The notes: generated by a model from the letters alone, not told the origin. DNA of 64,000 bases from an uncultured Gammaproteobacteria bacterium (GCA_963783635.1 CAWAOC010000002.1:28920-92919), one strand, 5' to 3'. Numbered from the stretch's first letter, positions 5,572 to 62,290 are shown. Program-made: numbers and translations.

Positions 5572-6119
5572 GCCTTTCCGACGTACTTCCGCAAGATGGG
5601 CGGGACGACCCGCGGCAGCCCGCCGCGGGTGAGCAACGCCGAGATCGCGTGGTCCTGGGCCGGCGCCTTCCTCGGCATCGCCGCGGCGGGGCTCCTGAGC
5701 CAGGCGCTCTTCGACGGCCTCGACCTGCCCGCTCATGATCGGTTCGCTCGGCGCTTCGGCCGTGCTGCTCTTCGGCGCGCCGCGCAGCCCGCTCGCCCAG
5801 CCGCGCAACCTCCTCGGCGGGCACATCCTCTCGGCCATCGTCGGCGTGGCCTGCTGGAAGCTCCTGCACCCGTTCCCCTGGCTCGCGGCGGCGCTCGCCG
5901 TGTCGACGGCGATCGCGGTCATGCACGCCACGAGGACGCTGCATCCGCCGGGCGGCGCCACGGCGCTCATCGCGGTCATCGGCTCGCGCGAGGTGCACGA
6001 GCTGGGCTTCCTCTACGTCCTCGTGCCCGCGCACCCTCGGCCCGCTCGTCCTTCTGGCGGTCGCGCTGGTGATGAACAACATCCCGGGTTCCCGGCGCTA
6101 CCCCGAAGTCTGGTTCTGA
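5568..6119 (+). pseudogene. HPP-family membrane protein; about 3 frame breaks
   Basis: GTG at 5568 overlaps the CBS stop (GTGA). Pieces EIAWSWAGAFLGIAAAGLL, LMIGSLGASAVLLFGAPRSPLAQPRN...HPPGGATALIAV and LGPLVLLAVALVMNNIPGSRRYPEVWF* lie in three frames. The breaks are near 5588, 5729 and 6030. Confidence 0.7.
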
Positions 6120-6128
6120 CCGCGCAAA

Positions 6129-6157
6129 GGAAAAGGCCCGCCGAAGCGGGCCTTTCC
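6129..6157. terminator. GC-rich hairpin AAAGGCCCGC-CGAA-GCGGGCCTTT between convergent HPP and cytochrome genes
   Basis: 10-bp stem with a 4-nt loop. The same core recurs at 14077..14104. Confidence 0.55.
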
Positions 6158-6179
6158 GTGACGCGGGAACCTTGCCGCC

Positions 6180-11462: not shown

Positions 11463-11491
11463 CGTGGTCGAGGGACGAGCCGGTCGATGAA

Positions 11492-12363
11492 ATGATGCTG
11501 GAGCTTCCCAACCCGTTCGGCGGCGAGGGCGGCGTGATCCGCCTCCTCGAGCCGCGGCAGTGCGACCGCGAGGCGATCGTCGATCGCATCCTCGCCGGCA
11601 CGTACCCGAAGCCGTTCGTGATCGAGGACGACGGCGCGCGCGCGCTCTACTTCACGCGCGCCTTCATCCAGAGCGAGATGCGGCTCGCGGACCCGTACGC
11701 GCTCGAGTTCGCCTACACGCGCAAGATGATGGGCTTCCTCCTCTTCCTCCCCGAGCCGCGCGCGATCCTGCAGCTGGGCCTGGGCGGGGGGTCGCTCGCG
11801 AAGTACTGCCACCGCCACTTCGCCGCGGCGAGGATCACGGTCGTCGAGATCGACCCGGACGTCATCGCCTTCCGCGAGCAGTTCCTCGTGCCGCCCGACG
11901 ACGCGCGCCTCCGGGTCGCTGCAGGGCGACGCCGCGCAGTACGTCGCGCAGTGCGAGGACGACCACGACGTCGTCCTCATCGACGCCTTCGACCGCGACG
12001 GGGTCGCCCCGTCCCTCTGCACGCGCGAGTTCTACCGGGACGTGCGGGGACTCCTCGGGCGCAAGGGCGTCATGGTGGCGAACCTCGTGGGCCGGAAGGA
12101 GGAGCGCCTCGCGCACCTCGAGATGATCCGCACCGTCTTCGACGGCAACGTGATCCTGCTTCCCGTCGCCGACGACGGGAACTACGTCGCCTTCGCGTTC
12201 CGCGACCCGGCCTTCGAGCCGCGCTGGCGCTGGATCGACGGCCAGGCGAAGGCGATGCACGCCCGCTACGGGCTCGATTTCCCGACGTTCGCGGGGAAGC
12301 TGGAGCGAAGCCGCAAGCGCGGCACCCTGCGGCGCGAGATGCTCCGCGCCGCCGTCGCGCTGA
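11492..12363 (+). pseudogene. Spermidine-synthase-like class I SAM-dependent methyltransferase; at least 1 frame break, 3' end uncertain
   Basis: ILQLGLGGGSLAKYCHRHF...ITVVEIDPDVIAFREQF and DVVLIDAFDRDGVAPSLCTREFY lie in two frames. Confidence 0.55.
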
Positions 12364-14104: not shown

Positions 14105-14127
14105 GGTACGCAACGGTACAGCCTGGA

Positions 14128-16103
<1,976 letters not shown>

Positions 16104-36985: not shown

Positions 36986-38040
36986 TCATTGTATCGGCTC
37001 GTCGCGCCGCCACACGAAGAGCGCGCACAGCCACGCGAGCGCCAGCACCGGCCACGACTCGTGGAGATAGCGCGTGAGCGTGGCGAAGGTGGCGAGCTGC
37101 CCGTAGGGCCAGCTGAAGAGCCGCAGGAAGTCGCCGAGCGCGCTGTAGGCGCCGAAGATCTTGGCGAAGAGCGCCCCGGCGAGCGTGAGGACGATGGCGA
37201 GGTAGATGCGCGCGGTCCGGCCGCAGCCCGCGCAGCGGCGCGAAGGCGAGCGAGTCCCGCGGCGAGGCCCAGCACGCGGCCCTCCGTCACCCAGCCCGCG
37301 GACAGGTGGGGCTTCAGCATCACGCGAGGCCATCGCGAACTTGCACCACAGCGCCGACGTGAGGAGGAGCAGCGTCCAGCGCAGCGCCCCGCCCGGCCCC
37401 TTGCAGCACGACCGACACGAAGAACCCGAAGCCCGCCACCGAGAGCGCGACCGATCCCGCCGTGACCAGGAAGTCGCCCGGATGCGGGACGCCTTCGCCG
37501 CCGATGTTGCCCGCCTCGAAGAAGGGCAGCGCGGGGTTGAGCTGCGCGAGGAGCCACAGCACCACGAGCACGAGCCCCGCATCGCCCCAGCCGCCGGCCG
37601 CCACGAGGCGCTCCCGCGCCTGCGCCAGCGGATGCGCGACCAGCGGTGCGCAGCGGCTCGGCGAAGACGAGCGTGCCGGCGAAGGCGCCCGCCGTGTTGG
37701 CGGCGACGTCGTAGAGCGAGGCGACGCGAGTGGGCACGAAGAGCTGCAGGGCCTCCATGGCGAGGCTGAAGGCCGCGCACCACGCCGACCGCCTTCGCCC
37801 GCGCGGTCCAGGGCGCGGCTCGGCCCCGCAGGACGAGGCAGGCGAGCGCGCCCAGCGGCATGTAGACGACGACGTTCAGCGCCACGTCGAACTCGAGCAG
37901 CACCTTCGGCCGCAGGAAGATCGCGAGCGCGTCCGGCCCCGGCATGCGCAGCGGCAGGAACGGGTACAGGCTCGCGTAGGCGACGAGCAGCGCCCAGACC
38001 GCGAGCGCCCCGCGATGGCGGGCGGCGTCAGCCGACAGGC
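36986..38040 (-). pseudogene. VanZ-like family membrane protein; about 5 frame breaks, start uncertain
   Basis: LYPFLPLRMPGPD...[45 protein letters not shown] and the C-terminal hydrophobic part ending VWRRDEPIQ* lie in different frames. Confidence 0.45.
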
Positions 38041-38550
38041 TTGAGCCCCTTGCGGTAGGCCGCCGGAGCGCTCGACGTAGTGCTCCGCGATCCAGGTGTT
38101 GTTGGCGATGTCCTCGGGGGTGAGGTGGCGCACGACCTTGCCCGGCACGCCGAGCACGAGCGAGCCGTCGGGGATGTGCTTGCCCTCGGGCACGAGGGCG
38201 CCGGCGCCGATGAGGCAGTTCTTCCCGATGACGGCCCGGTTGAGGATGATCGCGCCGATGCCGATGAGGGAGTTCTCCCCGATGGTGCAGCCGTGCAGCA
38301 TCACCATGTGGCCGACGCTCACGTTCCTCTCGAGGACGACGGGGATGCCGAGGTCGGTGTGGATCACCGAGCCGTCCTGCACGTTCACGTTCTCGCCGAG
38401 CGTGATGAGCTCGTTGTCGCCGCGCAGCGTGCACCCCCACCAGACGTTGGCGCCCTTCTTCATGAGCACCGAGCCGATGACGGCGGCGTTGGGGGCGACG
38501 AAGTTGTCGCCTTCGAGGACGGGCTTGCGGTCATCCAGTTCGTAGATCAT
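38028..38550 (-). pseudogene. Gamma-class carbonic anhydrase / hexapeptide-repeat (YrdA/PaaY-like) protein; 1 frame break near the 3' end
   Basis: MIYELDDRKPVLEGDNFVAPNAAVIGSV...CTLRGDNELITLGENVNVQDGSVIHTD...GHMVMLHGCTIG. Confidence 0.8.
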
Positions 38551-38615
38551 GGGGCGCCAGGGAAAGGGGTCGGATCCCATTTTCGCAAGGAAAACGGGAT
38601 CCGATGCACCCTTTT

Positions 38616-39368
38616 TTACATCTGCTTGAAGAGGTGCGAGTAGATGCGCGAGACGGTGAGGGTCTCGTCCTTGCCCTTCACCTTGATGTGCGCCTGGCCG
38701 CGGAAGTCGCGCGTGACGCCCGCGATCGCGTTCACGTTCACGATGGCGGAACGGTGGATCTGCCAGAAGGTGTCGGGGTCGAGGCCGTCGAGGAGCTCGC
38801 GGATGGGCGTCTTGATGAGCGCCTCGGAGTCCGCCGTCACCACGCGCGTGTACTTTTCATCCGACTGGAAGAAGAGCACCTCGGCCACGGGAATGAGGCG
38901 CAGGTTCTGCCCGAAGCTCGCCTTGATCCACTGCAGCTTCTCCTTGCCCGCGCCGCCGCGCAGCTGCGTCGCGAGCTGCGAGACGATGGCGTTGAGGTCC
39001 GGCGGCGGGCTCGCGAGCTTGGCCTTCAGGCGCTCGATCGTCACCGCGAGGCGCTCGTCGGTGTAGGGCTTGAGGATGTAGTCGACCGCGCCCGTCTCGA
39101 AGGCCTGGATGGCGTACTGGTCGTAGGCGGTCACGAAGACGACGTGCGCGCGGTTGCCCACGTGGCGCGCGACCTCCACGCCCGTCATCTCCGGCATCTG
39201 GATGTCGAGGAACATGAAGTCGGGCGCGCGGTCCTCGAGCGCCTCCAGCGCCGCGGCGCCGTCCTCCACGGACGCGATGACCTCGAGCTCCGGCCAGAGC
39301 TTCTCGAGCTTCGACTCGAGCTGCTCGCGCAGGATCGGCTCGTCTTCGGCGAGGATGGCGGTCGGCAT
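38616..39368 (-). CDS. LytTR-family response regulator (RR1)
   Basis: Intact 250-codon ORF. The receiver domain reads ILAEDEPILR...FLDIQMPEMTG...VFVTAYDQYA. The LytTR domain reads IPVAEVLFFQSDEKYTRVVT...FWQIHRSAIVN. Confidence 0.9.
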   Translation of the reverse strand: MPTAILAEDEPILREQLESKLEKLWPELEVIASVEDGAAALEALEDRAPDFMFLDIQMPEMTGVEVARHVGNRAHVVFVTAYDQYAIQAFETGAVDYILKPYTDERLAVTIERLKAKLASPPPDLNAIVSQLATQLRGGAGKEKLQWIKASFGQNLRLIPVAEVLFFQSDEKYTRVVTADSEALIKTPIRELLDGLDPDTFWQIHRSAIVNVNAIAGVTRDFRGQAHIKVKGKDETLTVSRIYSHLFKQM

Positions 39369-39377
39369 GCGCGAATC

Positions 39378-40930
39378 CTACCGCTTGAGCGCCCGCTTGA
39401 GGATCTTGCCGGTGGCGGTCATCGGCAGCGACTCCACGATCTCCACGATGCGCGGGTACTTGAAGCTCGCCATCCGCTCCTTGCACCACGCGATGACCGC
39501 CTCCGGCGTGGCCTGCTTGCCGGGGCGCAGCACGATCACGGCCTTCACCTCCTCGCCGTGGGTCTCGTGCGGCACGCCGATGACGGCCACCTGCGCGATG
39601 GCCTCGTGGGTCATCATCACCTCCTCGAGCTCGCGCGGATAGACGTTGAAGCCGCCGCGGATCACCATGTCCTTCAGGCGGTCGACGATGTAGAAGTTGC
39701 CCGCCTCGTCCATCTTGCCGATGTCGCCGGTGTGGAACCAGCCGTCGCGGATCGCCGCGGCGGTCGCCTGCGGGTTGCGGTAGTAGCCCTTCATCACGTT
39801 GTGGCCGCGGATCACGATCTCGCCCGGCTGGCCGGGCGGCAGCGGCGCGCCGGCCTCGTCCACGATGCGCATCTGCGTGCCCCAGATGGCCTGGCCGACG
39901 CTGCCGGGGATGCGCGGGGCGTCGAAGGAGCTGAACGTGGCCACGGGGCTCGTCTCCGAGAGCCCGTAGCCCTCGAAGATCGGGATCGCGAAGCGCTCCT
40001 CGAAGCGGCGCATCACCTCCACCGGCATCGCGGCGCCGCCCGAGATGCCCACGCGCAGCTTCGCCGCGATGGCCTTCAGGTCGTGGCGCTCCTCGGCGCC
40101 GGGCAGGTTCAGGATCGCCATGTACATCGTCGGCACGCCCGCGAAGATGGTCACCCCGTGCTTCTGCATGCGCGGCGAGCGCGGCGTCCGGGTCGAAGCG
40201 CGGCAGCAGCACCATCGAGGCGCCGCACCACAGCACGGCGTTCATCTGCACGCTCTGGCCGAAGGAATGGAAGAGCGGCAGCGCCACCAGGTGGCAGTCC
40301 GCCGCGCCCATCCGCGCGATCATGCAGGAGTTGAAGGCGTTCATCGCCAGGTTGGCGTGCGAGAGCTCCGCGCCCTTGGGCCGGCCCGTGGTCCCCGAGG
40401 TGTAGAGGATGACGGCGGTGTCGTTCGCGTCGGCTTCGGCGCAGGGGCCCTCGCCGGGCTGGCCGTGCATGAAGGCGCCCAGCGTTCGCGCCCCCTCGAT
40501 CGGGGAGGGCTTGGCGGGGTCGCCCGTGATCACGACGAACTCGGGGCACTTGCCGTACTGCACGAAGCCCGCGTGGCCTTCCTTCCCCAGCGGCAGGTCG
40601 GCGCTGCCCTCGAAGCAGAAGAACAGCCTTCGCCTGCGCGTCCTCGAGCTGGTAGGCGATCTCGGGCGCCTTGCCGAGGATGCTCACCGGCACGACCGTG
40701 GCGCCGGCCTTGAGGATGCCGTAGTAGACGATCGGGAAATACGGCAGGTTCGGGCACGCCAGCGCCACGTTGTCGCCGCGGCCGATGCCCAGCGCGCGCA
40801 GCCCGTTCGCCACGCGGTTGGCGGCCGCGTCCAGCTCCGCGTAGGTGATGGTGCGGTCGGCGAAGAAGATCGCCGCCTTGCCGGGGTGCACCTGGGCGCC
40901 CCGCTCGAGGCCCTGGGCCAGGTTGATCAT
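39378..40930 (-). pseudogene. Long-chain fatty acid-CoA ligase (AMP-binding, FadD-like); 2 frame breaks
   Basis: AMP-binding motif ILYTSGTTGRPKGAELSH, plus EGYGLSETSP, WFHTGDIG and ATGKILKR. The breaks are near 40625 and 40170. Confidence 0.85.
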
Positions 40931-40947
40931 CGACGATCCTCCGTTGC

Positions 40948-42096
40948 TCAGAGCGAGCGGGAAATGAGTTCCTTCATGATCTCGTTCGAGCCGCCGTAGA
41001 TGCGGGATACCCGCGCGTCGGCCCAGGCGCGCGCGATGGGATATTCCCACATGTAGCCGTTGCCGCCGTGCAATTGCAGGCAGGCGTCGATCACCTTGCA
41101 CTGCAGGTCCGTGCACCAGTACTTCGCCATGGAGGCGGTGGCCGCGTCGAGCGTGCCGGCGAGCACGAGCTCCAGGCAGCGGTCGACGAACACGCGCGCG
41201 ATCTGCAGCTCCGTCTTCGCCTCCGCGAGCGTGAAGCGCGTGTTCTGGAACTCCAGGATCGTCTTCCCGAAGGCCTTGCGGTCGCGGCAGTAGTCGAGCG
41301 TCCAGTCGAGCGCCGCCTCGGCGAGCGCCACCGCCGTGAGGGCGATCTGCAGCCGCTCCCAGGGCAGTTCCTGCATCAGGTAGGCGAAGCCCCGGCCTTC
41401 CTCGCCGAGGCGGTGGCCCGCGGGCACGCGGACGCCGTCGAAGAAGAGCTCGCCCGTGTCCTGCGCCTTGAGGCCCACCTTCTCGAGCCGGCGGCCCTTG
41501 GTGAAGCCCGCCATGGTGGTATCGACCACGAAGAGGCTCGTGCCGCTGGCGCCGCGCGAGGCGTCGGTCTTCGCCGCCACGACCACGAGGTCGCAGTGGA
41601 AGCCGTTGGTGATGAAGGTCTTGGCGCCGTTGAGCACGTAGTGGTCGCCGTCGCGCACGGCGGTGGCGCGGATGCCCTGCAGGTCGGAGCCGGCGCCCGG
41701 CTCGGTCATCGCGATGGCGCCGATCAGCTCACCCGTCGCCATTCTCGGCAGGTAGGCGCGCTTGAGGTCCTCGGTGCCGTAGTGCAGGAGGTAGGGCGCG
41801 ACGATGTCCGAGTGCAGCGACCATCCGAGGAGGCTCACCGCCCCCAGCCGCGCGGTCTCCTCGAAGACCACGACGCTGTAGCGCCGGTCCGCGCCCGCGC
41901 CGCCGTACTCCTCCGGCATCGTCGGGCACAGGAACCCGGCCGCGCCGCCCTTCAGCCAGATGTCGCGGTCGATGAAGCCCTGCTTCTCGTGGCGCTCGCG
42001 GTGCGGCAGCACCTCGGTGACGACGAAGCGGCGCAGGGCATCGCGGAATTGTTCGTGCTCGGGCTCGAAGAGCGTGCGCGGGATGGAGAAGGCCAT
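40948..42096 (-). CDS. Acyl-CoA dehydrogenase
   Basis: Intact 382-codon ORF: AIAMTEPGAGSDLQGI...FITNG...QLHGGNGYMWEYPIARAWADARVSRIYGGSNEIM. Confidence 0.9.
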   Translation of the reverse strand: MAFSIPRTLFEPEHEQFRDALRRFVVTEVLPHRERHEKQGFIDRDIWLKGGAAGFLCPTMPEEYGGAGADRRYSVVVFEETARLGAVSLLGWSLHSDIVAPYLLHYGTEDLKRAYLPRMATGELIGAIAMTEPGAGSDLQGIRATAVRDGDHYVLNGAKTFITNGFHCDLVVVAAKTDASRGASGTSLFVVDTTMAGFTKGRRLEKVGLKAQDTGELFFDGVRVPAGHRLGEEGRGFAYLMQELPWERLQIALTAVALAEAALDWTLDYCRDRKAFGKTILEFQNTRFTLAEAKTELQIARVFVDRCLELVLAGTLDAATASMAKYWCTDLQCKVIDACLQLHGGNGYMWEYPIARAWADARVSRIYGGSNEIMKELISRSL

Positions 42097-42105
42097 CCGG
42101 GCATT

Positions 42106-44320
42106 CTAACCGGCGGGCGGCTCTTCCCTGGGCAGCGGGGGCGGCGTGGACGGCGGCGCAGGCGCGGCGGGCGCCGGCGGCGGCGCCGGCTGCATCACGG
42201 GCTCGACCTTGGGCCGCGGCGCCGGGGCCGGCTCGGGCACTTTCGTCTTGCGGAAGAGCCACCAGCCGAACAGCCCCAGGAGGGCCACCGGCGCGAGCGC
42301 GGGCGACAGGGCGATCAGGACGACCACCGGGATGAAGATCGCCAGCGCCAGGAAGAGCCAGCCCAGGCCGTAGACGATCGCGGCCAGGATGCCCAGCACG
42401 AGCACGATGGCGGCGAAGGCGATCACGATCCCCGCGGCGCCGAGGAGCGCCCCGCCCGGGCCCGTGAGCGTCTCCGAGCCCACCTGCACCGGCATGGCGC
42501 CCGTGAGCACGGCGAAGACGCGCGAGGCCGGCCAGCACGGCGGCCACCACCACCAGGGCCACGAAGGTGAACGACAGGCGTCTTCCGCCAGGTGCGCTCG
42601 GCCTTGCCGACCACGGCGATCACCTTGCCGGCCCGCGTCTTCGGCTCGGCCGGCTGGGCGGGCGCGGCATCGGCGGCGAAGGCGCCCGTGCCGACCGGCG
42701 GCATCGCGGCCGGCGGCTTGAGTCCCTCCAGCGGCGCCTCGATGGTGGCGATGACGCCCGTGGGCGAGTTCGACTCCAGCGTGAGCTTCGCCTTCTCGCC
42801 GTAGAGCGCGACCAGCCGCTCGCGGATGTTGGCGAGCCCCACGCCCGCGCCGACGGTGTCGCCGAAGCCCGCGGCCGGTGTCCGACACCGTGAGGCGCAG
42901 CTTCCCGTCCTGCGCCTGCGCGGAGATGAGCACGGCGCCGCCCTCGCGCTGCGGCTCCAGGCCGTGCTTGATGGCGTTCTCGACGAGCGAGGGCAGCATG
43001 AGCGGCGGGAAGGGCGTGGCCAGCAGGCTCTCGGGCACGGAGATCTCGAAGGAGAGCCGCTTGCCCATGCGCATCTGCAGGATGTTGAGGTAGGCGCGCA
43101 CCAGCTCGACCTCCTGCCCGACGGTCGAGATCGACTCGCGCATCTTCGGCAGCGCGTTGCGCAGGTACTGGATGAGGTGGCCCACCATCGTGTGGGCCCG
43201 CGCCGGGTCCACCTCGGTGAGCGCCTGCACGTTGGCGAGCGTGTTGTAGAGGAAGTGCGGCTCCACCTGCGCCTGGAGGGCCTGCAGCTTCGCCTCCGTC
43301 ACCTGCTGGCTCATGCGGTGGTACTCGGCCTCCTTCCTCTTCAGGTCGGCCATGCGCTGGGCGGCGCGCGAGCGGTCGATGAAGAACTTCGCGATGGCGG
43401 TGAGGATGAAGAGCGGGATGAAGATCAGCACGAGGGCCGCGCCGATGCCGATCTTCTTCAGGTCCCCGCTCACGTTCTGGCGGATCTGCGCGCGCAGCTC
43501 CGGCGGCAGCGGCGCCACCACCACGCCGCCGGGACCCCCGATGTGGACGCCGCCGATGGCGGGCGGGGTGGGCGGCTCCGGCGGCTTCGGCGACGCGCCC
43601 TTGGTCGCGTCGTCGAGGTCGATCGTGATGGAGCCGCTCGGCCCCTTGCCGCCGGAGCCGAACTTGAGCACTTCGACGCGCGGCTTCTCGCCGGGCGCCG
43701 GTCTTGCGGGATCGATGTCGACCAGCGCGCGGTCCTTGCCGGGGCCCACGTCGATGACGATCCGCTTGGGCGCCCTGGCTCGCTGCCGGTCCCTGGCGAG
43801 CGCCTTCTTCGCCTCCTCCTCGGCCTCCTTGGCCGACTTGAGCGACTGCTCGAGCGCCTCCCTCACCTTCGTGTTCTCGACGCCGGCGTCCTTGAGCGCC
43901 TCCTCGGCGCTGCGGCGGGCCTCCTCGATGGCCGTGGCGGCATCGCGGGCCGCCTCCCGCGCCGTGTCGACCGCCTCGCGCTTGGCCCGGAGGACCTCGC
44001 GGCCGGCGTCGCGCAGTTCCGCGCGGGCGCTGTCGAGCTCCTCGAGGGCGCGGTCGAGCTCCTCGCGGCGGGCCGGGTCGGAGGTGGCCCCGCGCATGGC
44101 GAGGATCGTGCTCCTGCGCGATGTCCATGGCCCCTTCGGCGAAGGTGTTGTCGATCTCGCGCTTGATGGCCTTGTTCTCGTCCGGCGTCGCGCCTTCCTT
44201 CCGGTACTCGATGAGGTGGAAGGGGGTCACGAAGACGGCGAGCGCGATCACGACGGCGAAGCCGCCGAAGACGAGGCCCCACCAGGGCGTGCGGTGGATG
44301 AAGTCGGAAAGGGGTTTCAT
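42106..44320 (-). pseudogene. LytS/YehU-type sensor histidine kinase (HK1) with atypical N- and C-terminal regions; at least 3-5 frame breaks
   Basis: Motifs are QVEPHFLYNTLANV (His_kinase PF06580 type), LVENAIKHG and GVGLANIRERL. One N-terminal TM is followed by about 200 residues of charged coiled-coil-like sequence and a second TM. A hydrophobic, Pro-rich tail follows the ATPase domain. Confidence 0.8.
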
Positions 44321-44371
44321 GGATTCGGGGATCGCGGCGCCCCCGGAAGATACCCGGAAGGGCGCCAATGG

Positions 44372-44482
44372 TCAGTAGTCTTCGAGCATCGCCACGGCGG
44401 CGATGGCCACCGACAGCATCAGCACGCCGTAGAAGACGAACAGCGAGGAAAGCGACGGTGCGAGCGACTGGATGAACGACAT
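44372..44482 (-). CDS. 36-codon hydrophobic ORF (MSFIQSLAPSLSSLFVFYGVLMLSVAIAAVAMLEDY)
   Basis: The ATG is preceded by CAGGGAGCC. One predicted TM. It lies 51 bp upstream of HK1 and downstream of the repeat-containing promoter-like region. No homology is known to me. Confidence 0.4.
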   Translation of the reverse strand: MSFIQSLAPSLSSLFVFYGVLMLSVAIAAVAMLEDY

Positions 44483-44532: not shown

Positions 44533-44604
44533 AGATTAGGGGGGTGCCGGGGCCGGGGCGACGGGCAGGCGCCGAAATGCAGGAAACGGGGGGCGAAATG
44601 CAGG
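44533..44604 (-). promoter_or_regulatory. Promoter-like region: CCTGCATTTCG-N10-CCTGCATTTCG-N34-TAATCT (minus strand)
   Basis: Plus-strand repeats are at 44594..44604 and 44573..44583, with the -10 at 44533..44538. The repeats have 21-bp phasing. There is no good -35, consistent with activator dependence. Confidence 0.55.
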
Positions 44605-44635: not shown

Positions 44636-45422
44636 CTACATCTGCTTGAACAGGTGGGTGAAGTTGCGGGAGACGATGAGCGTCTCCCGGTGGCCCTTGA
44701 GGGCGATCTCGGCCTGGTCCTTGAGCCCCCGGCGGACGGAGGCGATGTGGTCCACGTTCACGATGGTGGCGCGGTGGACCTGCCAGAACTTCTCGGGGTC
44801 GAGCTCGTCGAGGAGCTCCTTGATGGGCTTGCGGATGAGCGTCTCGGCCTCGCACGTCACCACCCGCGTGTACTTCTCGTCGGACTGGAAGAAGAGGATC
44901 TCCTCGACGGGGATGAGGCGCACGCTCTGCCCCACGCTCGCCTTGATCCAGCGCAGGTGGTCGCCGTTGCGCGCGGCGCGAGGCGGCTCGCCAGGCGCTC
45001 GACCAGGTCGTCCATGGCCGGCGGGGCGCCGGAGAGCCGCTCCCGCAGCCGCTCGACCGTGGTCGCCAGGCGCTCCTCGTTGAAGGGCTTCAGGACGTAG
45101 TCGATGGCCCCCTGCTCGAAGGCCTCGACCGCGTACTGGTCGAAGGCGGTCACGAAGACGACGTGCGCGCGCTTGCCGACCACGCGCGCGGCCTCCAGGC
45201 CGTTCACGCCGGGCATGTGGATGTCGAGGAAGAAGAGGCTCGGGGCGTGCGTCGCGACCACCTGCTCGATGTCGCGGCCGTTCTCCATCTCGTGGACGAT
45301 GGCGAGCTCGGGCCAGAGCCGGGCCAGCCGCGCGCGCAGCTGCGCCCTCAGCAGGGGTTCGTCGTCGGCGATGACGGCGCTTGCGCGACCACGATCCGCG
45401 GTGACGGCGTCGGCGTTCCCAT
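44636..45422 (-). pseudogene. LytTR-family response regulator (RR2); about 2 frame breaks
   Basis: VIADDEPLLRAQL...FLDIHMPGVNG...VFVTAFDQYA, then RWIKASVGQSVRLIPVEEILFFQSDEKYTRVVT...FWQVHRATIVN. Confidence 0.8.
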
Positions 45423-45434
45423 GGGGCGGCAGTA

Positions 45435-46537
45435 TCAGGCACACGCGCTCGCAACGGAAGATGCCGGCGCCGGCGCGCCAGCCGGGGCGGGGACGTCCAC
45501 CTCGATCGTCGCCACCACGCCGCGCGGCACGTTCTCCTCGATCACGAGGCGGGCGCCCGTCCCGTAGAGGGCCTTCAGGCGCTCGCGGATGTTCGTGAGG
45601 CCCACCCCGGTGCCCTTCTTCGGCGAGATGCCCTCGCCCGTGTCCGCCACCGACAGGCGCAGGCGCCCGCCCTCCTCCCGCGGCGCGGATGGTGATCGTG
45701 CCCGCCTCGCAGCAGGGATCGACGCCGTGGATCACCGCGTTCTCGACGAGGGTGATGAGCATCATGGGCGGGAACGGCCGGCAGCGCAGGTCCTCGGGGA
45801 CGTCGAGCACGTAGTCGAGCCGCGAGCCCATGCGCATGCGGTGGATGTCGAGGAAGGCCTTCGACATGTCGATCTCGCGGCCGACGGTGGTGGAGTCCTC
45901 CCGCATGCGCGGCAGCGCCGCGCGCAGGTACTGGATGAGGCTTTCCAGCATGCGCGAGGCCGAGGCCGGATCGGTCTCGACGAGGTGCTGGACGTTCGCG
46001 AGCGTGTTGAACAGGAAGTGCGGCTCCACCTGCGCCTGCATGAGGGCGAGCTGGGCCTGCAGGACGTTCTTCTCGAGCTGCGCGCGCTCGGCCTGGGCGC
46101 GGGCGAGCTCCGCCGCGCTGGCGCGATTGCCGCTCGCGGAAGACGTAGACCCACACGGCCATGCACCCGAAGCCGATGCCCAGCCCCATGGTGATGAGCA
46201 CGCCGTAGTAGCGCTCGGTGAACATCGTCGCGATGTCGCGGCCCTTCACCACGCCGGCGAGCATCGTGCCGAGGAAGGAGCCCACGACGATCGAGGCGAC
46301 CTGGATCGCCCAGCGCGGCAGGCGCTGGCCGCGCAGGTTCGTGGCGACGGTGAAGAGGACCATGCTGGTGTAGCCCACGCACAGGGCGCTCACGAGCAGG
46401 TCGAGGTAGGTGTTGGCGAAGAACCAGACGATGGCCGCCGCCGCCCAGACGCACAGGACCGTGACCAGCAGCACGCGCCTGGGCGTGAGTCCCTCGAGGA
46501 GGTAGGCGTAGCGGTTCACGGCGGCCGGGGAGGACAT
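45435..46537 (-). pseudogene. LytS-type sensor histidine kinase (HK2), about 4 N-terminal TM segments; about 2 frame breaks
   Basis: QVEPHFLFNTLANVQHL, LVENAVIHG and GVGLTNIRERLKALYG are present. It ends 12 bp upstream of RR2. Confidence 0.8.
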
Positions 46538-46848
46538 GAAGTCGCCGGAAGGGTATCAGTTGCCGGCGGTGCTGACGCGGTCGCGCGGCTTCCAGCGGCC
46601 GGCGATGCCCGGGCGGGAGGCGGTGAAGAACTGCGCCGGCCTTTGCGACACCGGGCGGAGCGGTTCCGGGGTCCCGAGGCGGGCGATCCAGGGTGCGGGC
46701 AGGGGGCGGGTGGGTCGGTTCATGGGCGGGCTCTCTGGATTCGAAGGCTACGCGGGGCGATTCGCCGAAACCACCGTCCTGCGACGAAACGCGCCGGCGG
46801 GGGATCGGAATGCGCCGGGACAGGGCATTTGGGGAGGGTCAGGCTTTC

Positions 46849-46874: not shown

Positions 46875-46900
46875 AAAAAAGACCCGGCCGAAGCCGGGCA
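46875..46900 (-). terminator. Rho-independent terminator CCCGGC-TTCG-GCCGGG + TCTTTTTT (minus strand)
   Basis: Canonical GC stem, tetraloop and T6 tract, 27 bp downstream of the small ORF stop at 46927. Confidence 0.65.
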
Positions 46901-46926
46901 GGGGGATCGAACTACTTGGGGAGAAT

Positions 46927-47055
46927 TCAGGCGCCGACGACCATGGCGCCGACGGTGACCGCGAAGGTGAGCGCAAACCAACCGGCGATGACCGCCGTGA
47001 TCGCCGTGGAAACCCGGAAGGCGCGTGGCGGAACGACCCGGTCGAGGGTGGCCAT
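46927..47055 (-). CDS. 42-codon hydrophobic ORF (MATLDRVVPPRAFRVSTAITAVIAGWFALTFAVTVGAMVVGA)
   Basis: The ATG is preceded by AAGGGGGAC. One predicted TM. A terminator follows. Confidence 0.35.
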   Translation of the reverse strand: MATLDRVVPPRAFRVSTAITAVIAGWFALTFAVTVGAMVVGA

Positions 47056-47065
47056 GGCGTCCCCC

Positions 47066-47358
47066 TTACGGGCGGAAGGCGAAGGGCAGCGCGACTTCGA
47101 GCGACGGGCCGCCGGTCGAGCCGGACCGCGGCGGTGCGGGTCGACCGGGCGGGGCTGCCCGCGTTGCCGTTTTCGGCGGTCACGGTGAGCTTCATGGCGC
47201 CATCGTTCGAGAGGGTCACGGCGTTTCCGTGCGCTGCGCTCGCGGGCCGGCTTCGCGATGGCTTCGTGCGTGGTCACCATCCAGCCCACCAGCAGGGCGG
47301 CGGTGACGGCGGCCAGCGACGAAACACCGATCAGGTCCAGCTTCTCGACTTTGCTCAT
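47066..47358 (-). pseudogene. Small signal-anchored hypothetical protein (about 97 codons if two frame breaks are bridged)
   Basis: The ATG at 47358 is preceded by GAGGGAGAG. The translation is MSKVEKLDLIGVSSLAAVTAALLVGWMVTTHEAIAKPA, then HGNAVTLSNDGAMKLTVTAENGNAG, with a possible end ...GGPSLEVALPFAFRP* at 47066. The reconstruction is speculative. Confidence 0.3.
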
Positions 47359-47411
47359 GGCGACTCTCCCTCTACGGCTCGGCACCCGGCGGGTGCGTTC
47401 GACTTGCCGCC

Positions 47412-47482
47412 AGATTAAGGAGGCGCGAGGGGGGCCTGAAGCGGAAAGCGACGAAATGCGGAAAAGGAGGGGCGAAACGCCG
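47412..47482 (-). promoter_or_regulatory. Paralogous promoter-like region: CGGCGTTTCG-N11-CCGCATTTCG-N34-TAATCT (minus strand)
   Basis: Plus-strand repeats are at 47473..47482 and 47452..47461, with the -10 at 47412..47417. Phasing (21 bp) and repeat-to-minus-10 distance (34 bp) are the same as at 44533..44604. Both regions share CCAGATTA(A/G)GG. Confidence 0.5.
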
Positions 47483-58550: not shown

Positions 58551-61415
58551 ATGAGCGTGGCCAAGTCCCGCCGTTCCGCAGCCGACATCTCGAAGCTGCC
58601 CGCCCAGGAAATCAGCACCGAAGTCCTCGTCGAGAAGTACGCCAAGGACGGCGAAACCTCGATCCGCGAAGTGCGGGTGCGCGTGGCCAAGGCCCTGGCG
58701 GCCAACGAGAACGAGGACCGCCGGGCCTTCTGGGAGGCCAAGTTCCTCGAAGCCCAGGAAAACGGATTCATCCCCGCCGGCCGCATCAATTCCGCCGCCG
58801 GCACCAGCCTCACCGCCACGCTCATCAACTGCTTCGTGCAGCCGGTGGGCGACTCCATCACCGAGATCGTCGACGGGCGCCCCGGCATCTACACGGCGCT
58901 GGCCGAAGCCGCGGAGACGATGCGCCGCGGCGGCGGCGTGGGCTACGACTTCTCCTCCATCCGCCCCGAGGGCGCGTGGGTCAAGGGCACCAACTCGCGC
59001 GCGAGCGGGCCGGTTTCGTACATGCGCGTGTTCGACCAGTCGTGCGAAACGGTCGAGAGCGCGGGCGCGCGCCGCGGCGCGCAGATGGGCGTGCTGCGCT
59101 GCGACCACCCGGACATCGAGCGCTTCATCCACGCCAAGGACCAGGGCGACCTCACCAACTTCAACGTCTCCGTGGGCGTCACCGACGCGTTCATGAAGGC
59201 CGTGGAAGCCAACGGCGACGTGGAGCTGGTGCACCGCGCCGAGCCCTCGCAGGAAGTGAAGGACGGCGGCGGCTACCAGCGCGGCGACGGGCTGTGGGTG
59301 TACCGCAAGGTGCGCGCCCAGGACCTGTGGGACCAGGTCATGCGCTCGACCTACGACCACGCCGAGCCGGGCATCCTCTTCCTCGACCGCATCAACCGCG
59401 ACAACAACCTGTATTACTGCGAGGCCATCGAGGCGACGAACCCGTGCGCCGAGCAGCCCCTGCCCGCCTACGGCTGCTGCTGCCTGGGCTCCATCGACGT
59501 GGCGCGCTTCGTGAAGAGCCCGTTCGAGGACGACTGCGCCTTCGACTTCGAGGGCTTCGGCAAGGTGATCGACGCCTCCGTGCGCATGCTGGACAACGTG
59601 CTCGACGTGACGCCCTGGCCGCTGCCCGCGCAGAAGAAGGAAGCCTCGAACAAGCGCCGCGTGGGCCTGGGCTACACGGGGCTGGGCGATGCGCTCCTGA
59701 TGCTTCGCCTCGCCTACGACACGGACGACGCGCGCGCCATGGGCGCGAAGATCACCGAGTACATGCGCGACCGCGCGTACGAGGCGAGCGTGGAGCTGGC
59801 CCGCGAGCGCGGCGCCTTCCCGCTCTTCAACGCCGACCTCTACCTCTCCGGCGGCAACTTCGCCTCGCGCCTGCCGCAGGAGATCAAGGACAAGATCCGC
59901 AAGCACGGCATCCGCAACTCCCACCTCCTGTCGATCGCGCCCACCGGCACGATCTCGCTCGCCTTCGCCGACAACGCCTCCAACGGCATCGAGCCGCCCT
60001 TCTCCTGGACCTACACGCGCAAGAAGCGCATGGCCGACGGCACGCACAAGGAGTTCCGCGTCGAGGACCACGCCTTCCGCCTGTTCAAGTTCCTGAACGG
60101 CGAGGACGCGAAGCTGCCGGAGTGGTTCGTGACCGCGCTCGAGATCTCCGCGGAAGCGCACAAGGCGATGGTGGCCGCCGTGGCGCCGTTCATCGACACC
60201 AGCATCTCGAAGACGGTGAACGTGCCCGAGGACTACCCCTACTCCGAGTTCGAGGGGCTCTACCTCTCGGCGTGGAAGTCGGGCCTGAAGGGCCTGGCCA
60301 CCTACCGGCCCAACAGCGTGCTCGGCTCCGTGCTGTCGACGGAACCCGCGAAGCCGGCCGAGCCCGCGCGCGCCGAGCTGCCGGTGGACACGATGAACCG
60401 GCGCCTGTCGATCAAGTCGCTGCCCGAGCCCGTGCTCGCGAGCCTGCGCTGGCCCGGCCGCCCGGAGCTGCCCGAGGGCAACCCGGCGTGGACGTACATG
60501 ATCGATTCGCCCGTGGGCAAGTTCGCGCTCTTCATCGGCCACGTGGAGGGCGAGACGCACCGCGCCTTCCCGTTCGAGGTCTGGGTGAACGGCGCCGAGC
60601 AGCCGCGCGGCCTGGGGGCGGTGGCGAAGACGCTTTCCATGGACATGCGCGCCAACGACCGCGCCTGGCTCAAGATGAAGCTCGACGCGCTGGCGCTCAC
60701 CGTGGGCGACGACGGCTTCGACATGCGCATGCCGCCGCACGGCGAGAAGCGGCGCGTGCCCAGCATGGTCTCCGCGCTCGGGCAGGTCGTGCGCTGGCGA
60801 TGCGAGTCGCTCAAGGCCTTCGACGACGCGGGCGCCTCCCCCCTGCTGGACGCCCTCTTCAGCCTCGAGGAGCCGCGCACCGGCACCGACGGCACGCTCG
60901 CCTGGACGGTGGACATCGCGAACCCCGCCTCGGGCGAGGAATTCGTGATGGGCCTGAAGGAAATGCACATGCCCGACGGCGGCACGCGGCCCTACTCGAT
61001 GTGGCTCTCGGGGCACTACCCGCGCGCGCTCGACGGGCTGGCGAAGCTCCTCTCGCTCGACATGCGCGTGATGGACCCGGCCTGGATCGGCATGAAGCTT
61101 CGCAAGCTCCTCGACTACAGCGAGCCGCTGGGCGACTTCATGGCCTTCGTGCCCGGCCAGCGCCGGCAGCAGAACTGGTCCTCCACCGTCGCGTACCTCG
61201 CGCGCCTGGTCATCCACCGCTACTCGATGCTGGGCGTCCTCGACGAGAACGGCTACCCCAAGCAGGAGATGGGCATCCTCGAGTCGCCGCGGCGCGGGGA
61301 CGAGCCCGCGCTCATGAAGGGCACCAAGTGCGGCGAGTGCGGGAACATGACCGTCATCCGCAAGGACGGCTGCGATTTCTGCAGCGCGTGCGGGTGGGTG
61401 GGGGCGTGCGGATAG
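58551..61415 (+). CDS. nrdJ: Class II (adenosylcobalamin-dependent) ribonucleoside-diphosphate reductase
   Basis: The ATG at 58551 follows GAGGGGGA, giving an intact 954 codons. Motifs are [15 protein letters not shown], the active-site NPCAEQPL, and a C-terminal Cys-rich tail [23 protein letters not shown]. Confidence 0.9.
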
Positions 61416-61484
61416 CGCCTGCCGCAAGCTGGCGACGGGGACAGTTGATAGGGATTCGCGAGATCCGAGACCCCGACGCACGCC

Positions 61485-61733
61485 ATGAACGCCCCCTCCG
61501 AACGCCCGCCCCTGCCCGATCGCCTGTCCGTGGATCCGCGCAGCCCCCACCACGTGGCCGCCGTGCTCGAGCACGACATCGGCATCCGCCTGAACGACCA
61601 TGAACGCAGGGACGTGGAGGAGTACTGCATCAGCGAGGGCTGGGTCAAGGTGCAGGCGGGCAAGGCGGTGGACCGCAAGGGGCACCCGCTGCTGATCAAG
61701 CTCAAGGGCAAGGTCGAGGCGTTTTACCGGTAG
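61485..61733 (+). CDS. DUF3297-family small protein
   Basis: Intact 82-codon ORF: PDRLSVDPRSPHH...IRLNDHERRDVEEYCISEGWVKV. The family assignment is from memory. Confidence 0.6.
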   Translation: MNAPSERPPLPDRLSVDPRSPHHVAAVLEHDIGIRLNDHERRDVEEYCISEGWVKVQAGKAVDRKGHPLLIKLKGKVEAFYR

Positions 61734-61795
61734 GCACGCCGCGGCAGGGCCGCGATCCCTCCGCCGTATCAGGGAGGGAAACGCGACAGCGGCGC

Positions 61796-62290
61796 TCATT
61801 TCGGCGACGAACCCCGGCACTCGAGCGGCAGTTGGCTCGACGGGATGTCCGTCTCGTCGCGGCCGCGAATCTCCATGCCGTTGGGCACGGGAACGTCGTG
61901 GCAGATCCAGGCGATGGGCACCAGGGGCTGGTCCGCCACGATGGCCGGCCGCAGCGTCACGCGCTTGCCATCCAGCGCCTTGCCGGCGTTGTTCCCGTAG
62001 GTGAGGGTGATCGCCCCGCCATCGACGTTCACGTCCTTCACGAGGTTGCCGACGATCTTGTCGCGCGGCGGGATGGCGGCGGCCGCATTGTCCGCGGGCA
62101 TCTCCGCCTTGGCGGTCCACGCGGCCTGCACGCCCTGCTTGGCGAGGTCGGCGAGTACCAGACCCTCCTTCACCTGCTTCTTGAGCGCGGTGTCCCGCAT
62201 GGACGGGAACGCGAGGGCGGCCAGGATCGCGAAAACGGCGAGCACCAGCAGGAGCTCGATCCAGGTGAAGCCGGCGGAGTTTCTGCGCAT
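61796..62290 (-). CDS. Type IV pilin / pseudopilin with prepilin N-methylation motif
   Basis: The ATG at 62290 gives MRRNSAGFTWIELLLVLAVFAILAALAFP (G/FxxxE cleavage-methylation motif). A C-terminal Cys pair is present (C130, C158). No other pilus genes are in the window. Confidence 0.85.
   Translation of the reverse strand: MRRNSAGFTWIELLLVLAVFAILAALAFPSMRDTALKKQVKEGLVLADLAKQGVQAAWTAKAEMPADNAAAAIPPRDKIVGNLVKDVNVDGGAITLTYGNNAGKALDGKRVTLRPAIVADQPLVPIAWICHDVPVPNGMEIRGRDETDIPSSQLPLECRGSSPK

What the first reader, a model, noticed from the sequence alone, without database searches (positions are those of the whole stretch)
38616..44482. Two-component system split by an acyl-CoA dehydrogenase and an acyl-CoA ligase in one tightly packed operon
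The minus-strand order is small ORF, then HK1, ACAD, FadD-like ligase and LytTR RR1. The gaps are 51, 9, 17 and 9 bp, so the kinase and its presumptive partner regulator are separated by two fatty-acid-activating and oxidising enzymes.

I know of no described LytS/LytTR system with embedded acyl-CoA enzymes. By analogy only (the DSF/Rpf system uses an acyl-CoA ligase for signal turnover), the enzymes could make, modify or destroy a fatty-acid-derived signal sensed by HK1. Alternatively the TCS may control fatty-acid use.
Basis: partly seen in the sequence, partly recalled or inferred. Interest (0 to 1): 0.65.

Follow-up and report, generated by a model that had tools for sequence, protein, structure and literature searches.

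The report
Fatty-acid enzymes inserted in a sensor operon
A soil and sediment betaproteobacterium carries two ordinary fatty-acid-degrading enzymes inserted exactly between a sensor kinase and its partner regulator, so they are probably switched on with the sensor; relatives often lack the insert, which makes it optional cargo rather than part of the signalling machinery.

Summary
Five of those seven sites were checked and are single extra bases absent from independent short-read DNA or RNA contigs. Frame switches pervade the whole window, so these are assembly errors.

HK1 (PF06580 kinase) and RR1 (REC+LytTR) are a cognate pair. They are adjacent in 59 related loci, usually about 9 nt apart. 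In one Usitatibacteraceae sublineage, an LCAD-type acyl-CoA dehydrogenase and a long-chain fatty-acid-CoA ligase sit at that junction.

All four states occur among close relatives: both enzymes, ACAD only, ligase only, or neither. Each enzyme forms one clade seen only at this position. ACAD is under purifying selection.

A conserved 9-12-9 direct repeat typical of LytTR sites precedes the operon. No internal promoter or terminator was detected. Metatranscriptome contigs bridge two of the four junctions.

Best reading: the enzymes are dispensable cargo expressed from an autoregulated TCS operon. The DSF-like signal-turnover idea is not supported. This is a new variant of a known kind, of modest interest.

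The parts
44574..44603 (-). Putative LytTR-regulator binding site: direct repeat CTGCATTTC-12 nt-CTGCATTTC
   Evidence: Exact 9-12-9 repeat. Only one other match in the window, with 3 mismatches (0.02 expected by chance). Conserved in 17 aligned loci, including U. rugosus, while the flanking non-coding DNA is not. The architecture matches LytTR autoregulatory sites in PMC6193735. Binding has not been tested.
44533..44538 (-). Candidate -10 hexamer TAATCT, with a weak -35-like TCGCCC 17 nt upstream and 12 nt downstream of the repeat
   Evidence: The CCTAATCTGG block is conserved across loci and was read directly from the sequence. The consensus sigma-70 scan did not call it, so this is inference.
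44372..44482 (-). 36-aa single-TM peptide gene (MSFIQSL...AMLEDY)
   Evidence: The ORF is present at this position in relatives at 64-97% identity, with a conserved C-terminal LEDY. It was called as a 36-aa gene in L001, L164, L166, L167 and L170. An RNA contig spans its junction with HK1.
44341..44360 (-). Conserved about 20-nt element CTTCCGGGTATCTTCCGGGG between the small ORF and HK1
   Evidence: Nearly invariant in 15 of 17 aligned loci, whereas its flanks vary. Function unknown.
42106..44320 (-). HK1: sensor histidine kinase. It has TM1, a helical extracytoplasmic region, TM2, PF06580 His_kinase plus HATPase_c, and a C-terminal multi-helix TM domain. Here it is broken by about five 1-nt insertions.
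   Evidence: Pfam hits. The mended 738-aa protein aligns at 96-100% coverage and 72-77% identity with intact homologs of about 700-730 aa. H-box His, N, G1 and G2 boxes are invariant. AF2 model of homolog P0001.
42097..42105 (-). 9-nt HK1-ACAD spacer AATGCCCGG. The ACAD start codon sits where the RR1 start codon sits in genomes without the insert.
   Evidence: Junction comparison: the ancestral form is TAG-AATCGCGGC-ATGGCG(RR1); the window has TAG-AATGCCCGG-ATGGCC(ACAD).
40948..42096 (-). LCAD-type acyl-CoA dehydrogenase, 382 aa, intact
   Evidence: Three ACAD Pfam domains. Best PDB matches are 2pg0 and human ACADL 8w0t, E about 1e-122, with the catalytic-Glu motif QELPxERL aligned. It belongs to a clade of about 49 clusters at 81-100% identity. 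dN/dS is 0.07-0.26.
39378..40930 (-). Long-chain fatty-acid-CoA ligase of about 516 aa, broken here by 1-nt insertions at about 40627 and 40171
   Evidence: AMP-binding and AMP-binding_C domains spread across three frames. NCBIfam NF004837 scores 485 bits against a cut-off of 476. Full-length identity to intact homologs is 80-84%, and 95% to P0246, which reads through both sites. Independent contigs lack the extra bases.
39369..39377 (-). 9-nt ligase-RR1 spacer GATTCGCGC, a second copy of the TAG+9 nt+ATG junction
   Evidence: Identical in L172. It resembles the ancestral HK1-RR1 spacer. A DNA contig from run X2 spans this junction.
38616..39368 (-). RR1: response regulator with REC plus LytTR DNA-binding domain, 250 aa, intact
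   Evidence: Pfam PF00072 and PF04397. The best NCBIfam match is BtsR, below its cut-off. Orthologs at 90-95% identity lie directly after HK1 in close relatives.

Best explanation
This is a real operon of an uncultured Usitatibacteraceae-like betaproteobacterium. It encodes a 36-aa membrane peptide, an unusual PF06580-type sensor kinase (HK1), an LCAD-type acyl-CoA dehydrogenase, a long-chain fatty-acid-CoA ligase and a LytTR response regulator (RR1). Only parts of it have been seen as RNA.

HK1 and RR1 are an old cognate pair whose genes normally abut. In one sublineage the two enzyme genes were placed precisely at the HK1-RR1 junction. The ACAD start codon now occupies the position of the former RR1 start codon, and the stop+9 nt+ATG junction is repeated after the ligase.

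The operon is preceded by a conserved 9-12-9 direct repeat of the kind LytTR regulators bind. It shows no recognisable internal promoter or terminator. I therefore infer positive autoregulation: phosphorylated RR1 (or its paralog RR2) activates the operon and with it the two enzymes. Those enzymes catalyse entry into beta-oxidation, first free fatty acid to acyl-CoA, then to trans-2-enoyl-CoA.

The enzymes are accessory cargo placed under TCS control. They are not parts of the signalling device, because they have been lost singly or together many times while the TCS persists.

Shown: gene identities, cognate adjacency in relatives, variable presence of the cassette, purifying selection on ACAD, conservation of the repeat, RNA contigs across two junctions, and the artefactual nature of five of the seven frameshifts.

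Inferred: who binds the repeat, co-transcription across the other two junctions, the substrates, and the stimulus sensed by HK1.
For: Identities.

Cognate pair: HK1 and RR1 are adjacent in 59 loci, including the complete genomes CP053069 and CP019169.

The same four-gene order occurs intact in L172 (GCA_036274935; gaps 48, 14, 9), in L164 and in L083. ACAD-only loci are L002, L084, L168-L171. Ligase-only loci are L012 and L174.

Every looked-up member of the ACAD clade (at least 83% identity) and of the ligase clade (at least 79%) lies at this junction. The next relatives (76% and 72%) lie in unrelated contexts.

In HK1 and RR1 trees, loci with and without the cassette are interspersed and the outgroups lack it. 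ACAD dN/dS is 0.07-0.26. Junction anatomy and the L003 scar or precursor.

LytTR-type repeat: with the architecture per PMC6193735. No internal promoter-like or terminator-like sites.

RNA contigs bridge ACAD-ligase in three metatranscriptomes and small ORF-HK1 in one.

Frameshifts are artefacts at the five sites that could be checked.
Against: There is no experimental link between RR1 and the repeat. RR2, encoded just upstream, could bind it instead.

No RNA contigs covered the HK1-ACAD or ligase-RR1 junctions. Metatranscriptomes can contain DNA.

One RNA contig (44530-44608) overlaps the proposed promoter, which suggests read-through from upstream or DNA carry-over.

The consensus promoter scan is insensitive at 70% G+C, so an internal promoter cannot be excluded. 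In ligase-only relatives a hairpin followed by a T-run lies after HK1.

The remaining beta-oxidation enzymes (hydratase/dehydrogenase, thiolase) are not in the locus. The trees are neighbour-joining without bootstrap support. The high loss rate could also mean the cargo is nearly neutral.
Confidence: 0.6

Rival explanations
1. Signal-turnover or signal-synthesis module. The ligase and ACAD would activate and modify or destroy a fatty-acid-derived signal that HK1 senses, by analogy with RpfB in DSF turnover.
For: The enzymes are physically embedded in the TCS operon. That order is retained in several lineages whose HK1 sequences are about 72-75% identical to the window's. A ligase of the same superfamily turns over DSF in Xanthomonas (own knowledge). 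HK1 has large membrane and extracytoplasmic parts with no known ligand.
Against: The same HK1-RR1 pair exists without either enzyme in 59 loci, and in half of the closest relatives. Each enzyme can also be lost alone. No RpfF/crotonase-type synthase, hybrid kinase or HD-GYP partner is present. Both enzymes are close (72-76%) to ordinary betaproteobacterial beta-oxidation enzymes in non-TCS contexts.
Confidence: 0.12
2. Functionally unlinked hitch-hikers. The HK1-RR1 junction is simply a permissive insertion and deletion hot spot. The enzymes are expressed there but bear no adaptive relation to what the TCS senses, and are on their way to being lost.
For: Distribution is patchy, with at least four to five inferred losses. 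The ligase is internally deleted in the 98%-related strain L167. Short repeated junction sequences on both sides of the cassette could mediate precise excision.
Against: ACAD is under purifying selection (dN/dS 0.07-0.26) across lineages whose HK1 has diverged to 66-75% identity with the window. The enzymes are intact in L172 and in the Illumina contigs. The tight 9-17-nt spacing is preserved. Transcripts were detected in three metatranscriptomes.
Confidence: 0.2
3. The kinase and ligase are genuine pseudogenes, meaning a decaying operon in this strain.
For: About seven frameshifts in the two genes of the window. L164's ligase is called as two ORFs, and L167's is truncated. Two of the HK1 shifts (near 42865 and below 42520) could not be checked against independent contigs.
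Against: GC3 stays at about 0.95-1.0 across every shift. Frame switches occur at similar density throughout the 64 kb. Independent DNA and RNA contigs at 95-99% identity lack the extra base at 40171, 40627, 42520 and 42579, and one contig has a single gap across about 44105. P0246 reads through both ligase sites.
Confidence: 0.05

Closest known systems
AlgZ(FimS)/AlgR of Pseudomonas aeruginosa, and BtsS/BtsR and YpdA/YpdB of E. coli (proteobacterial PF06580-kinase/LytTR-regulator systems)
   Same: The kinase has a PF06580 His_kinase plus HATPase_c core. The regulator has REC plus LytTR. The genes abut in the ancestral state. RR1's best NCBIfam match is BtsR. The neighbouring HK2 (about 360 aa) and RR2 have the AlgZ/AlgR size and layout.
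   Different: HK1 lacks the 5TM LytS-type sensor domain. It has a helical extracytoplasmic region of about 250 aa and a C-terminal multi-helix membrane domain after the ATPase. RR1 is below the BtsR cut-off (136 against 246 bits). No known member carries acyl-CoA enzymes between kinase and regulator (and own knowledge).
LytTR autoregulatory promoters (AgrA P2/P3; HdrR/BrsR LytTR regulatory systems, PMC6193735)
   Same: Two 9-bp direct repeats separated by 12 bp lie about 10 bp upstream of a weak -35, in front of the regulator's own operon.
   Different: The repeat sequence (CTGCATTTC) differs from the Firmicute ACCxCTTAx-type consensus. Binding and autoregulation are untested here.
AtoS/AtoC-atoDAEB of E. 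coli (a two-component system controlling short-chain fatty-acid catabolism)
   Same: The proposed logic is the same: a TCS switches on enzymes that activate and degrade fatty acids (own knowledge).
   Different: The families differ: a PAS/HisKA kinase and an NtrC-type sigma-54 activator. The catabolic genes form a separate operon rather than sitting inside the TCS operon. The enzymes also differ (CoA-transferase, thiolase).
Rpf/DSF system (RpfF synthase, RpfC/RpfG, RpfB ligase) of Xanthomonas
   Same: An ANL-superfamily fatty-acyl-CoA ligase is genetically linked to a sensory system.
   Different: There is no RpfF-type crotonase, no hybrid kinase and no HD-GYP regulator. The enzymes here are dispensable for the TCS.
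Housekeeping beta-oxidation entry enzymes: LCAD-type ACAD (human ACADL, Geobacillus 2pg0) and FadD-type long-chain acyl-CoA synthetase
   Same: Full-length matches. The catalytic Glu motif and the ANL motifs (TSGTTGRPKG, GYGLSET, TGD, final Lys) are present.
   Different: They form their own clades, found only at the HK1-RR1 junction of one Usitatibacteraceae sublineage.

Membership tests
PF06580-kinase/LytTR-regulator two-component systems (LytS/AlgZ class) | The kinase has a PF06580 His_kinase (DHp with conserved His) followed by HATPase_c | tested here: met
   PF06580 E 2.3e-22, plus HATPase_c. Homologs carry both domains. His355, and the N, G1 and G2 boxes, are invariant in 25 sequences.
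PF06580-kinase/LytTR-regulator two-component systems (LytS/AlgZ class) | The regulator has a receiver domain with the phospho-accepting Asp, plus a LytTR DNA-binding domain | tested here: met
   PF00072 E 3.7e-22 and PF04397 E 5.1e-23. The acidic pocket (EDE), Asp in FLDIQMP and Lys in ILKP were read directly.
PF06580-kinase/LytTR-regulator two-component systems (LytS/AlgZ class) | Kinase and regulator are a cognate, co-inherited pair | tested here: met
   Orthologs are directly adjacent in 59 loci. Phosphotransfer itself is not testable with these tools.
LytS/BtsS/YpdA subfamily proper | N-terminal 5TM receptor domain (5TMR_LYT, PF07694), and for BtsR the equivalog score | tested here: not met
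   No PF07694 hit. HK1 has two TM helices plus a helical region at the N-terminus. RR1 scores 136 bits against the BtsR cut-off of 246.
Acyl-CoA dehydrogenase, LCAD-like | N, middle and C-terminal ACAD domains, with the catalytic Glu at the LCAD/IVD position | tested here: met
   All three Pfam domains. Aligns with human ACADL over residues 7-381, E 1.7e-122, with QELPwERL aligned to KELPqERL. The role of that Glu is from own knowledge. Chain-length preference is not testable here.
Long-chain fatty-acid-CoA ligase (ANL superfamily, PRK06187 subfamily) | AMP-binding plus AMP-binding_C domains, a score above the NCBIfam cut-off, and the core motifs | tested here: met
   NF004837 scores 485.3 against 476. 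Met only after removing the two 1-nt insertions shown to be artefacts.
DSF/Rpf quorum-sensing cluster | RpfF crotonase-type synthase, with an RpfC hybrid kinase and an RpfG HD-GYP regulator | tested here: not met
   None of these domains occurs in the operon or in the flanking genes of the window or of relatives.
Autoregulated LytTR operon | [quoted passage not shown] | tested here: inconclusive
   The repeat is present, conserved and statistically unexpected, and its architecture matches PMC6193735. Binding and activation are not testable with these tools.

The most novel reading that the evidence does not exclude
HK1, together with its 36-aa membrane peptide and its odd C-terminal membrane domain, may sense free fatty acids or lipid perturbation of the membrane. 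The embedded ligase and dehydrogenase would then remove that very stimulus. The result would be a self-contained sense-and-consume (or signal-quenching) feedback module, which different strains tune by keeping one enzyme, both or neither.
Probability: 0.12. Interest if true: 0.7.

Novelty: new variant of a known kind. Interest (0 to 1): 0.36.

Why it matters
The locus is a natural series showing how a metabolic function is wired to a sensory system. A two-gene cassette was dropped exactly at the stop-start junction of a kinase-regulator pair, inherited the operon's autoregulated promoter, and was then trimmed or excised repeatedly.

The series of states (neither enzyme, ACAD, ligase, both) within one bacterial family makes the question testable: does a TCS gain a new output simply by operon capture?

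It also flags an uncharacterised, widespread betaproteobacterial kinase family (4724 proteins with E <= 0.001 among the 8000 candidates scored). That family has an unusual architecture and a conserved micro-peptide partner.

Practically, the window comes from an error-rich assembly, so ORF-based annotation of it will miscall many genes as broken.

Tried and rejected
- Mechanical ORF lists and Pfam on raw ORFs gave fragments and spurious long Arg- and Pro-rich ORFs at 70% G+C. I replaced them with GC3 frame tracking and conceptual mending.
- The sigma-70 consensus scan found no promoter anywhere in 10 kb. It is uninformative at this G+C, so the candidate promoter rests on conservation instead.
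- Neighbours of the 68-76% ACAD homologs were searched for a pre-existing ACAD-ligase pair as a donor. None was found; only 26-36% ligases were occasionally nearby.
- RNA contigs were sought across the HK1-ACAD and ligase-RR1 junctions. None covered them.
- AlphaFold2 of an HK1 homolog gave only moderate confidence (pLDDT 66, pTM 0.36). I did not run a fold search on it.
- Literature searches for LytTR plus acyl-CoA dehydrogenase, and for Usitatibacter, returned nothing relevant.
- I considered and rejected an assembly chimera. The order is reproduced in independent Illumina assemblies and contigs.
- I considered recent horizontal transfer of the cassette. G+C and GC3 are indistinguishable from the flanks, so any transfer is old.

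Full report
**1. What is in the sequence**

The window is about 70% G+C, so mechanical ORF lists are full of spurious long frames.

- a 36-aa ORF (44482..44372);
- a histidine kinase, HK1 (44320..42106; PF06580 His_kinase plus HATPase_c);
- an acyl-CoA dehydrogenase (42096..40948; 382 aa);
- an AMP-binding ligase (40930..39378);
- a REC+LytTR response regulator, RR1 (39368..38616; 250 aa).

The gaps are 51, 9, 17 and 9 nt, as reported.

The ligase runs through three frames, with shifts near 40627 and 40171. HK1 switches frame about five times, near 44105, 42865, 42579, 42520 and once more below 42520.

**2. The frameshifts are assembly errors**

- GC3 stays at about 0.95-1.0 on both sides of every shift.
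- The whole 64-kb window changes frame roughly every 500 nt on the same strand.
- Logan contigs from four unrelated wetland and sediment metagenomes, 95-99% identical to the window, lack one base at 40171 and 40627, and at 38062/3 in the next gene.
- Another DNA contig and an RNA contig lack one base at 42520 and 42579/42520. An RNA contig lacks one at 40170. One 187-nt DNA contig has a single gap across about 44105.
- The shifts near 42865 and below 42520 were not covered by any contig, so they are unchecked.
- A 95%-identical ligase from JGI assemblies (P0246) reads straight through both ligase sites.
- After conceptual removal of the extra bases, HK1 (738 aa) aligns over 96-100% of its length with intact homologs of 700-730 aa. 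The ligase (518 aa) aligns over 100% with intact homologs of 516-519 aa.

The genes should be treated as intact in nature.

**3. Gene identities**

ACAD. It has all three ACAD domains. Its closest solved relatives are Geobacillus 2pg0 and human long-chain ACAD (E about 1e-122), with the LCAD catalytic-Glu motif aligned.

Ligase. It passes the NCBIfam cut-off for the PRK06187 long-chain-fatty-acid-CoA ligase subfamily (485 against 476 bits). It carries the ANL core motifs.

RR1. It is a complete receiver plus LytTR protein. Its best named relative is BtsR, below that model's cut-off.

HK1. It has the invariant H, N, G1 and G2 boxes but not the 5TM LytS sensor domain. An AlphaFold2 model of a homolog has moderate confidence (pLDDT 66). 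Together with the alignment it shows, in order:

- TM1;
- about 130 residues of long helices;
- a disordered Pro/Gly-rich stretch;
- TM2, continuous with the DHp helix;
- the ATPase domain;
- a linker;
- a conserved C-terminal domain of three long membrane helices.

Named hits place the organism in Usitatibacteraceae (Betaproteobacteria), from soil, wetland and sediment metagenomes.

**4. HK1 and RR1 are a cognate pair that was split**

A species-dereplicated genome scan and targeted look-ups gave 59 loci in which the RR1 ortholog directly follows the HK1 ortholog. These include the complete genomes of Usitatibacter rugosus (CP053069; 9-nt spacer) and strain GR16-43 (CP019169).

The wider neighbourhood is also conserved: an SSF transporter, small membrane ORFs, HK2-RR2, the 36-aa ORF, HK1-RR1, sometimes HK3-RR3, a hexapeptide protein and a VanZ-like protein.

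**5. The enzymes are a variable cassette confined to one sublineage**

The four-gene order HK1-ACAD-ligase-RR1 recurs in several assemblies:

- L172, a clean Illumina MAG (GCA_036274935): 717, 382, 516 and 250 aa; gaps 48, 14 and 9 nt;
- L164 (GCA_054403255);
- L083, a 97%-identical JGI contig;
- L167, a 98%-related strain, with an internally deleted ligase.

Other states also occur. HK1-ACAD-RR1 is found in L002, L084 and L168-L171. HK1-ligase(-RR1) is found in L012 and L174, and L173 shows ligase-RR1. HK1-RR1 is found in equally close relatives L003, L004, L015, L038, L163, L165 and L166, whose RR1 is 90-94% identical to the window's.

ACAD homologs form a tight clade, all 382 aa and 81-100% identical, and then drop to 76% (Dechloromonas and Azonexus, in non-TCS contexts). 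Ligase homologs form a clade at 79-95% and then a 72% continuum. Every member of either clade whose context I could see lies at this junction.

In neighbour-joining trees of HK1 and RR1, loci with and without the enzymes are interspersed and the outgroups lack them. The simplest history is one gain followed by several partial or complete losses. The trees are unbootstrapped, and gene flow between strains is an alternative.

ACAD evolves under purifying selection (pairwise dN/dS 0.07-0.26). G+C and GC3 match the flanks, so the cassette is not a recent arrival.

**6. Anatomy of the insertion**

The ancestral junction reads HK1...CCGGTTAG-AATCGCGGC-ATGGCGAACCCCACCGCG (RR1).

In the window, HK1's TAG is followed by AATGCCCGG and then ATGGCC of ACAD. 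The ligase's TAG is followed by GATTCGCGC and then ATGCCGACCGCC of RR1. A stop+9 nt+ATG junction therefore flanks the cassette on both sides, and ACAD has taken over RR1's translation-initiation position.

Neither 9-nt spacer has a clear Shine-Dalgarno sequence, which suggests translational coupling. The ACAD-ligase spacer has GGAGG.

L164 keeps a decayed RR1 5' stub and a 60-nt spacer after its ligase. L003, which has no enzymes, carries the same stub and spacer directly after HK1. L003 is therefore either a deletion scar or the pre-insertion state.

Ligase-only loci share the HK1-proximal spacer of L172 and L002. This points to deletion of ACAD rather than a second insertion. Excision by recombination between the repeated junctions is my inference.

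**7. Expression signals**

Aligning the region upstream of the 36-aa ORF from 17 loci shows one strongly conserved non-coding block. It reads CTGCATTTC-12 nt-CTGCATTTC (44603..44574), then 12 nt, a weak -35-like TCGCCC, 17 nt and TAATCT (44538..44533).

The only other match in the window, with three mismatches, lies at 47482..47453, in front of the small ORFs and HK2-RR2. Chance expectation is 0.02.

Two 9-bp direct repeats 12 bp apart, about 10 bp upstream of the -35, is the architecture through which LytTR regulators activate their own operons (PMC6193735).

No promoter-like or terminator-like site lies between 44482 and 38616, though that scan is weak at this G+C.

In three metatranscriptomes, contigs at 95-98% identity bridge the ACAD-ligase junction. 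One bridges the small ORF-HK1 junction. Further contigs cover HK1, ACAD, the ligase and RR1. The HK1-ACAD and ligase-RR1 junctions were not covered, and DNA carry-over cannot be excluded.

**8. Interpretation**

The best-supported reading (confidence about 0.6) is an autoregulated LytTR-type TCS operon that has captured the two entry enzymes of fatty-acid beta-oxidation. Their expression would follow whatever HK1 senses. They are optional cargo rather than part of the signalling mechanism.

The DSF-like signal-turnover idea is not excluded but lacks support. The TCS persists without the enzymes, each enzyme is individually dispensable, there is no synthase, and the enzymes are ordinary in sequence.

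A neutral hitch-hiker reading is weakened by purifying selection and by retention across diverged lineages. The high loss rate keeps it alive.

True pseudogenisation is effectively refuted for the ligase and for three of the five HK1 sites. An assembly chimera is refuted.

**9. Novelty**

I found no description of a PF06580/LytTR system with acyl-CoA enzymes between kinase and regulator. The components are all of known kinds, and the most likely logic has precedents such as AtoSC: a TCS controlling catabolic genes.

I rate it a new variant of a known kind, of moderate to low interest. The more interesting by-products are the natural gain/loss series at a stop-start junction, and the uncharacterised HK1 family with its micro-peptide and C-terminal membrane domain.

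Noticed in passing
whole window; e.g. 38062, 40171, 40627, 42520, 42579, ~42865, ~44105, 44969, ~45481, ~45678, ~46111: Coding frames switch about every 500 nt on the same strand throughout the 64 kb. Where checked, the cause is a single extra base absent from independent short-read contigs. This looks like an unpolished long-read assembly, and many genes will be miscalled as pseudogenes.
   Followed up: partly
window 44636-46560 (-): A second kinase-regulator pair, HK2-RR2, lies directly upstream. HK2 is PF06580 type, about 360 aa and AlgZ/FimS-like in size; RR2 is REC+LytTR. Both are also frameshifted here. Relatives carry two or three such pairs in tandem (HK2-RR2, HK1-RR1, HK3-RR3).
   Followed up: partly
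window 47453-47482 (-) and 46880-47400 (-): A degenerate copy of the 9-12-9 repeat (CGGCGTTTC-12-CCGCATTTC) precedes two small membrane ORFs (about 96 aa, and 42 aa: MATLDRVV...). These are conserved upstream of HK2 in relatives. A terminator-like hairpin at 46899..46882 follows them.
   Followed up: partly
window 44372-44482 and 44341-44360 (-): The 36-aa single-TM peptide, with a conserved C-terminal LEDY, precedes HK1 in most relatives. It is shortened to 24 aa in one subclade and diverges in L005. It is followed by a nearly invariant 20-nt element, CTTCCGGGTATCTTCCGGGG. It may be a kinase-modulating micro-protein and an RNA or DNA element of unknown function.
   Followed up: partly
window 42106-42620 (-); homologs in alignments A1/A3: HK1 carries a conserved domain of three long membrane helices C-terminal to its ATPase domain, plus a Pro-rich tail. 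This is an unusual placement for membrane segments in a histidine kinase. The search returned 4724 proteins with E <= 0.001 among the 8000 candidates scored; how many share the full architecture was not checked.
   Followed up: partly
L167 (ERZ25039597 contig_20483) 5300-7430 and 11150-12236: L167 is a strain with 98%-identical ACAD and RR1. Only the ligase ends remain (residues about 8-190 and 470-517). The HK2-RR2 position is occupied by a LytTR fragment plus an AidB-like 548-aa acyl-CoA dehydrogenase. That assembly is also frameshift-ridden, so this may be partly artefact.
   Followed up: no
L012 1285-1425; L174 275-395: In ligase-only relatives the HK1-ligase spacer contains a G+C-rich hairpin followed by a T-rich run (GGGGACGTCTCGTGCCGTCCCC GTTTTCTT). 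This is a possible terminator or attenuator between kinase and ligase, and it is absent from the window.
   Followed up: no
window 37876-38580 (-): A hexapeptide-repeat protein (gamma-carbonic-anhydrase/PaaY-like, about 173 aa) starts 35 nt after RR1. It is conserved downstream of the TCS cluster in nearly all relatives. Its C-terminus is frameshifted here at about 38062.
   Followed up: partly
window 6183-7304 (-), 14116-15750 (-), 58584-61817 (+): Other recognisable genes in the window are a multihaem c-type cytochrome (many CxxCH motifs), GroEL, and a long ribonucleotide-reductase-like ORF that has four in-frame stops in this assembly.
   Followed up: no
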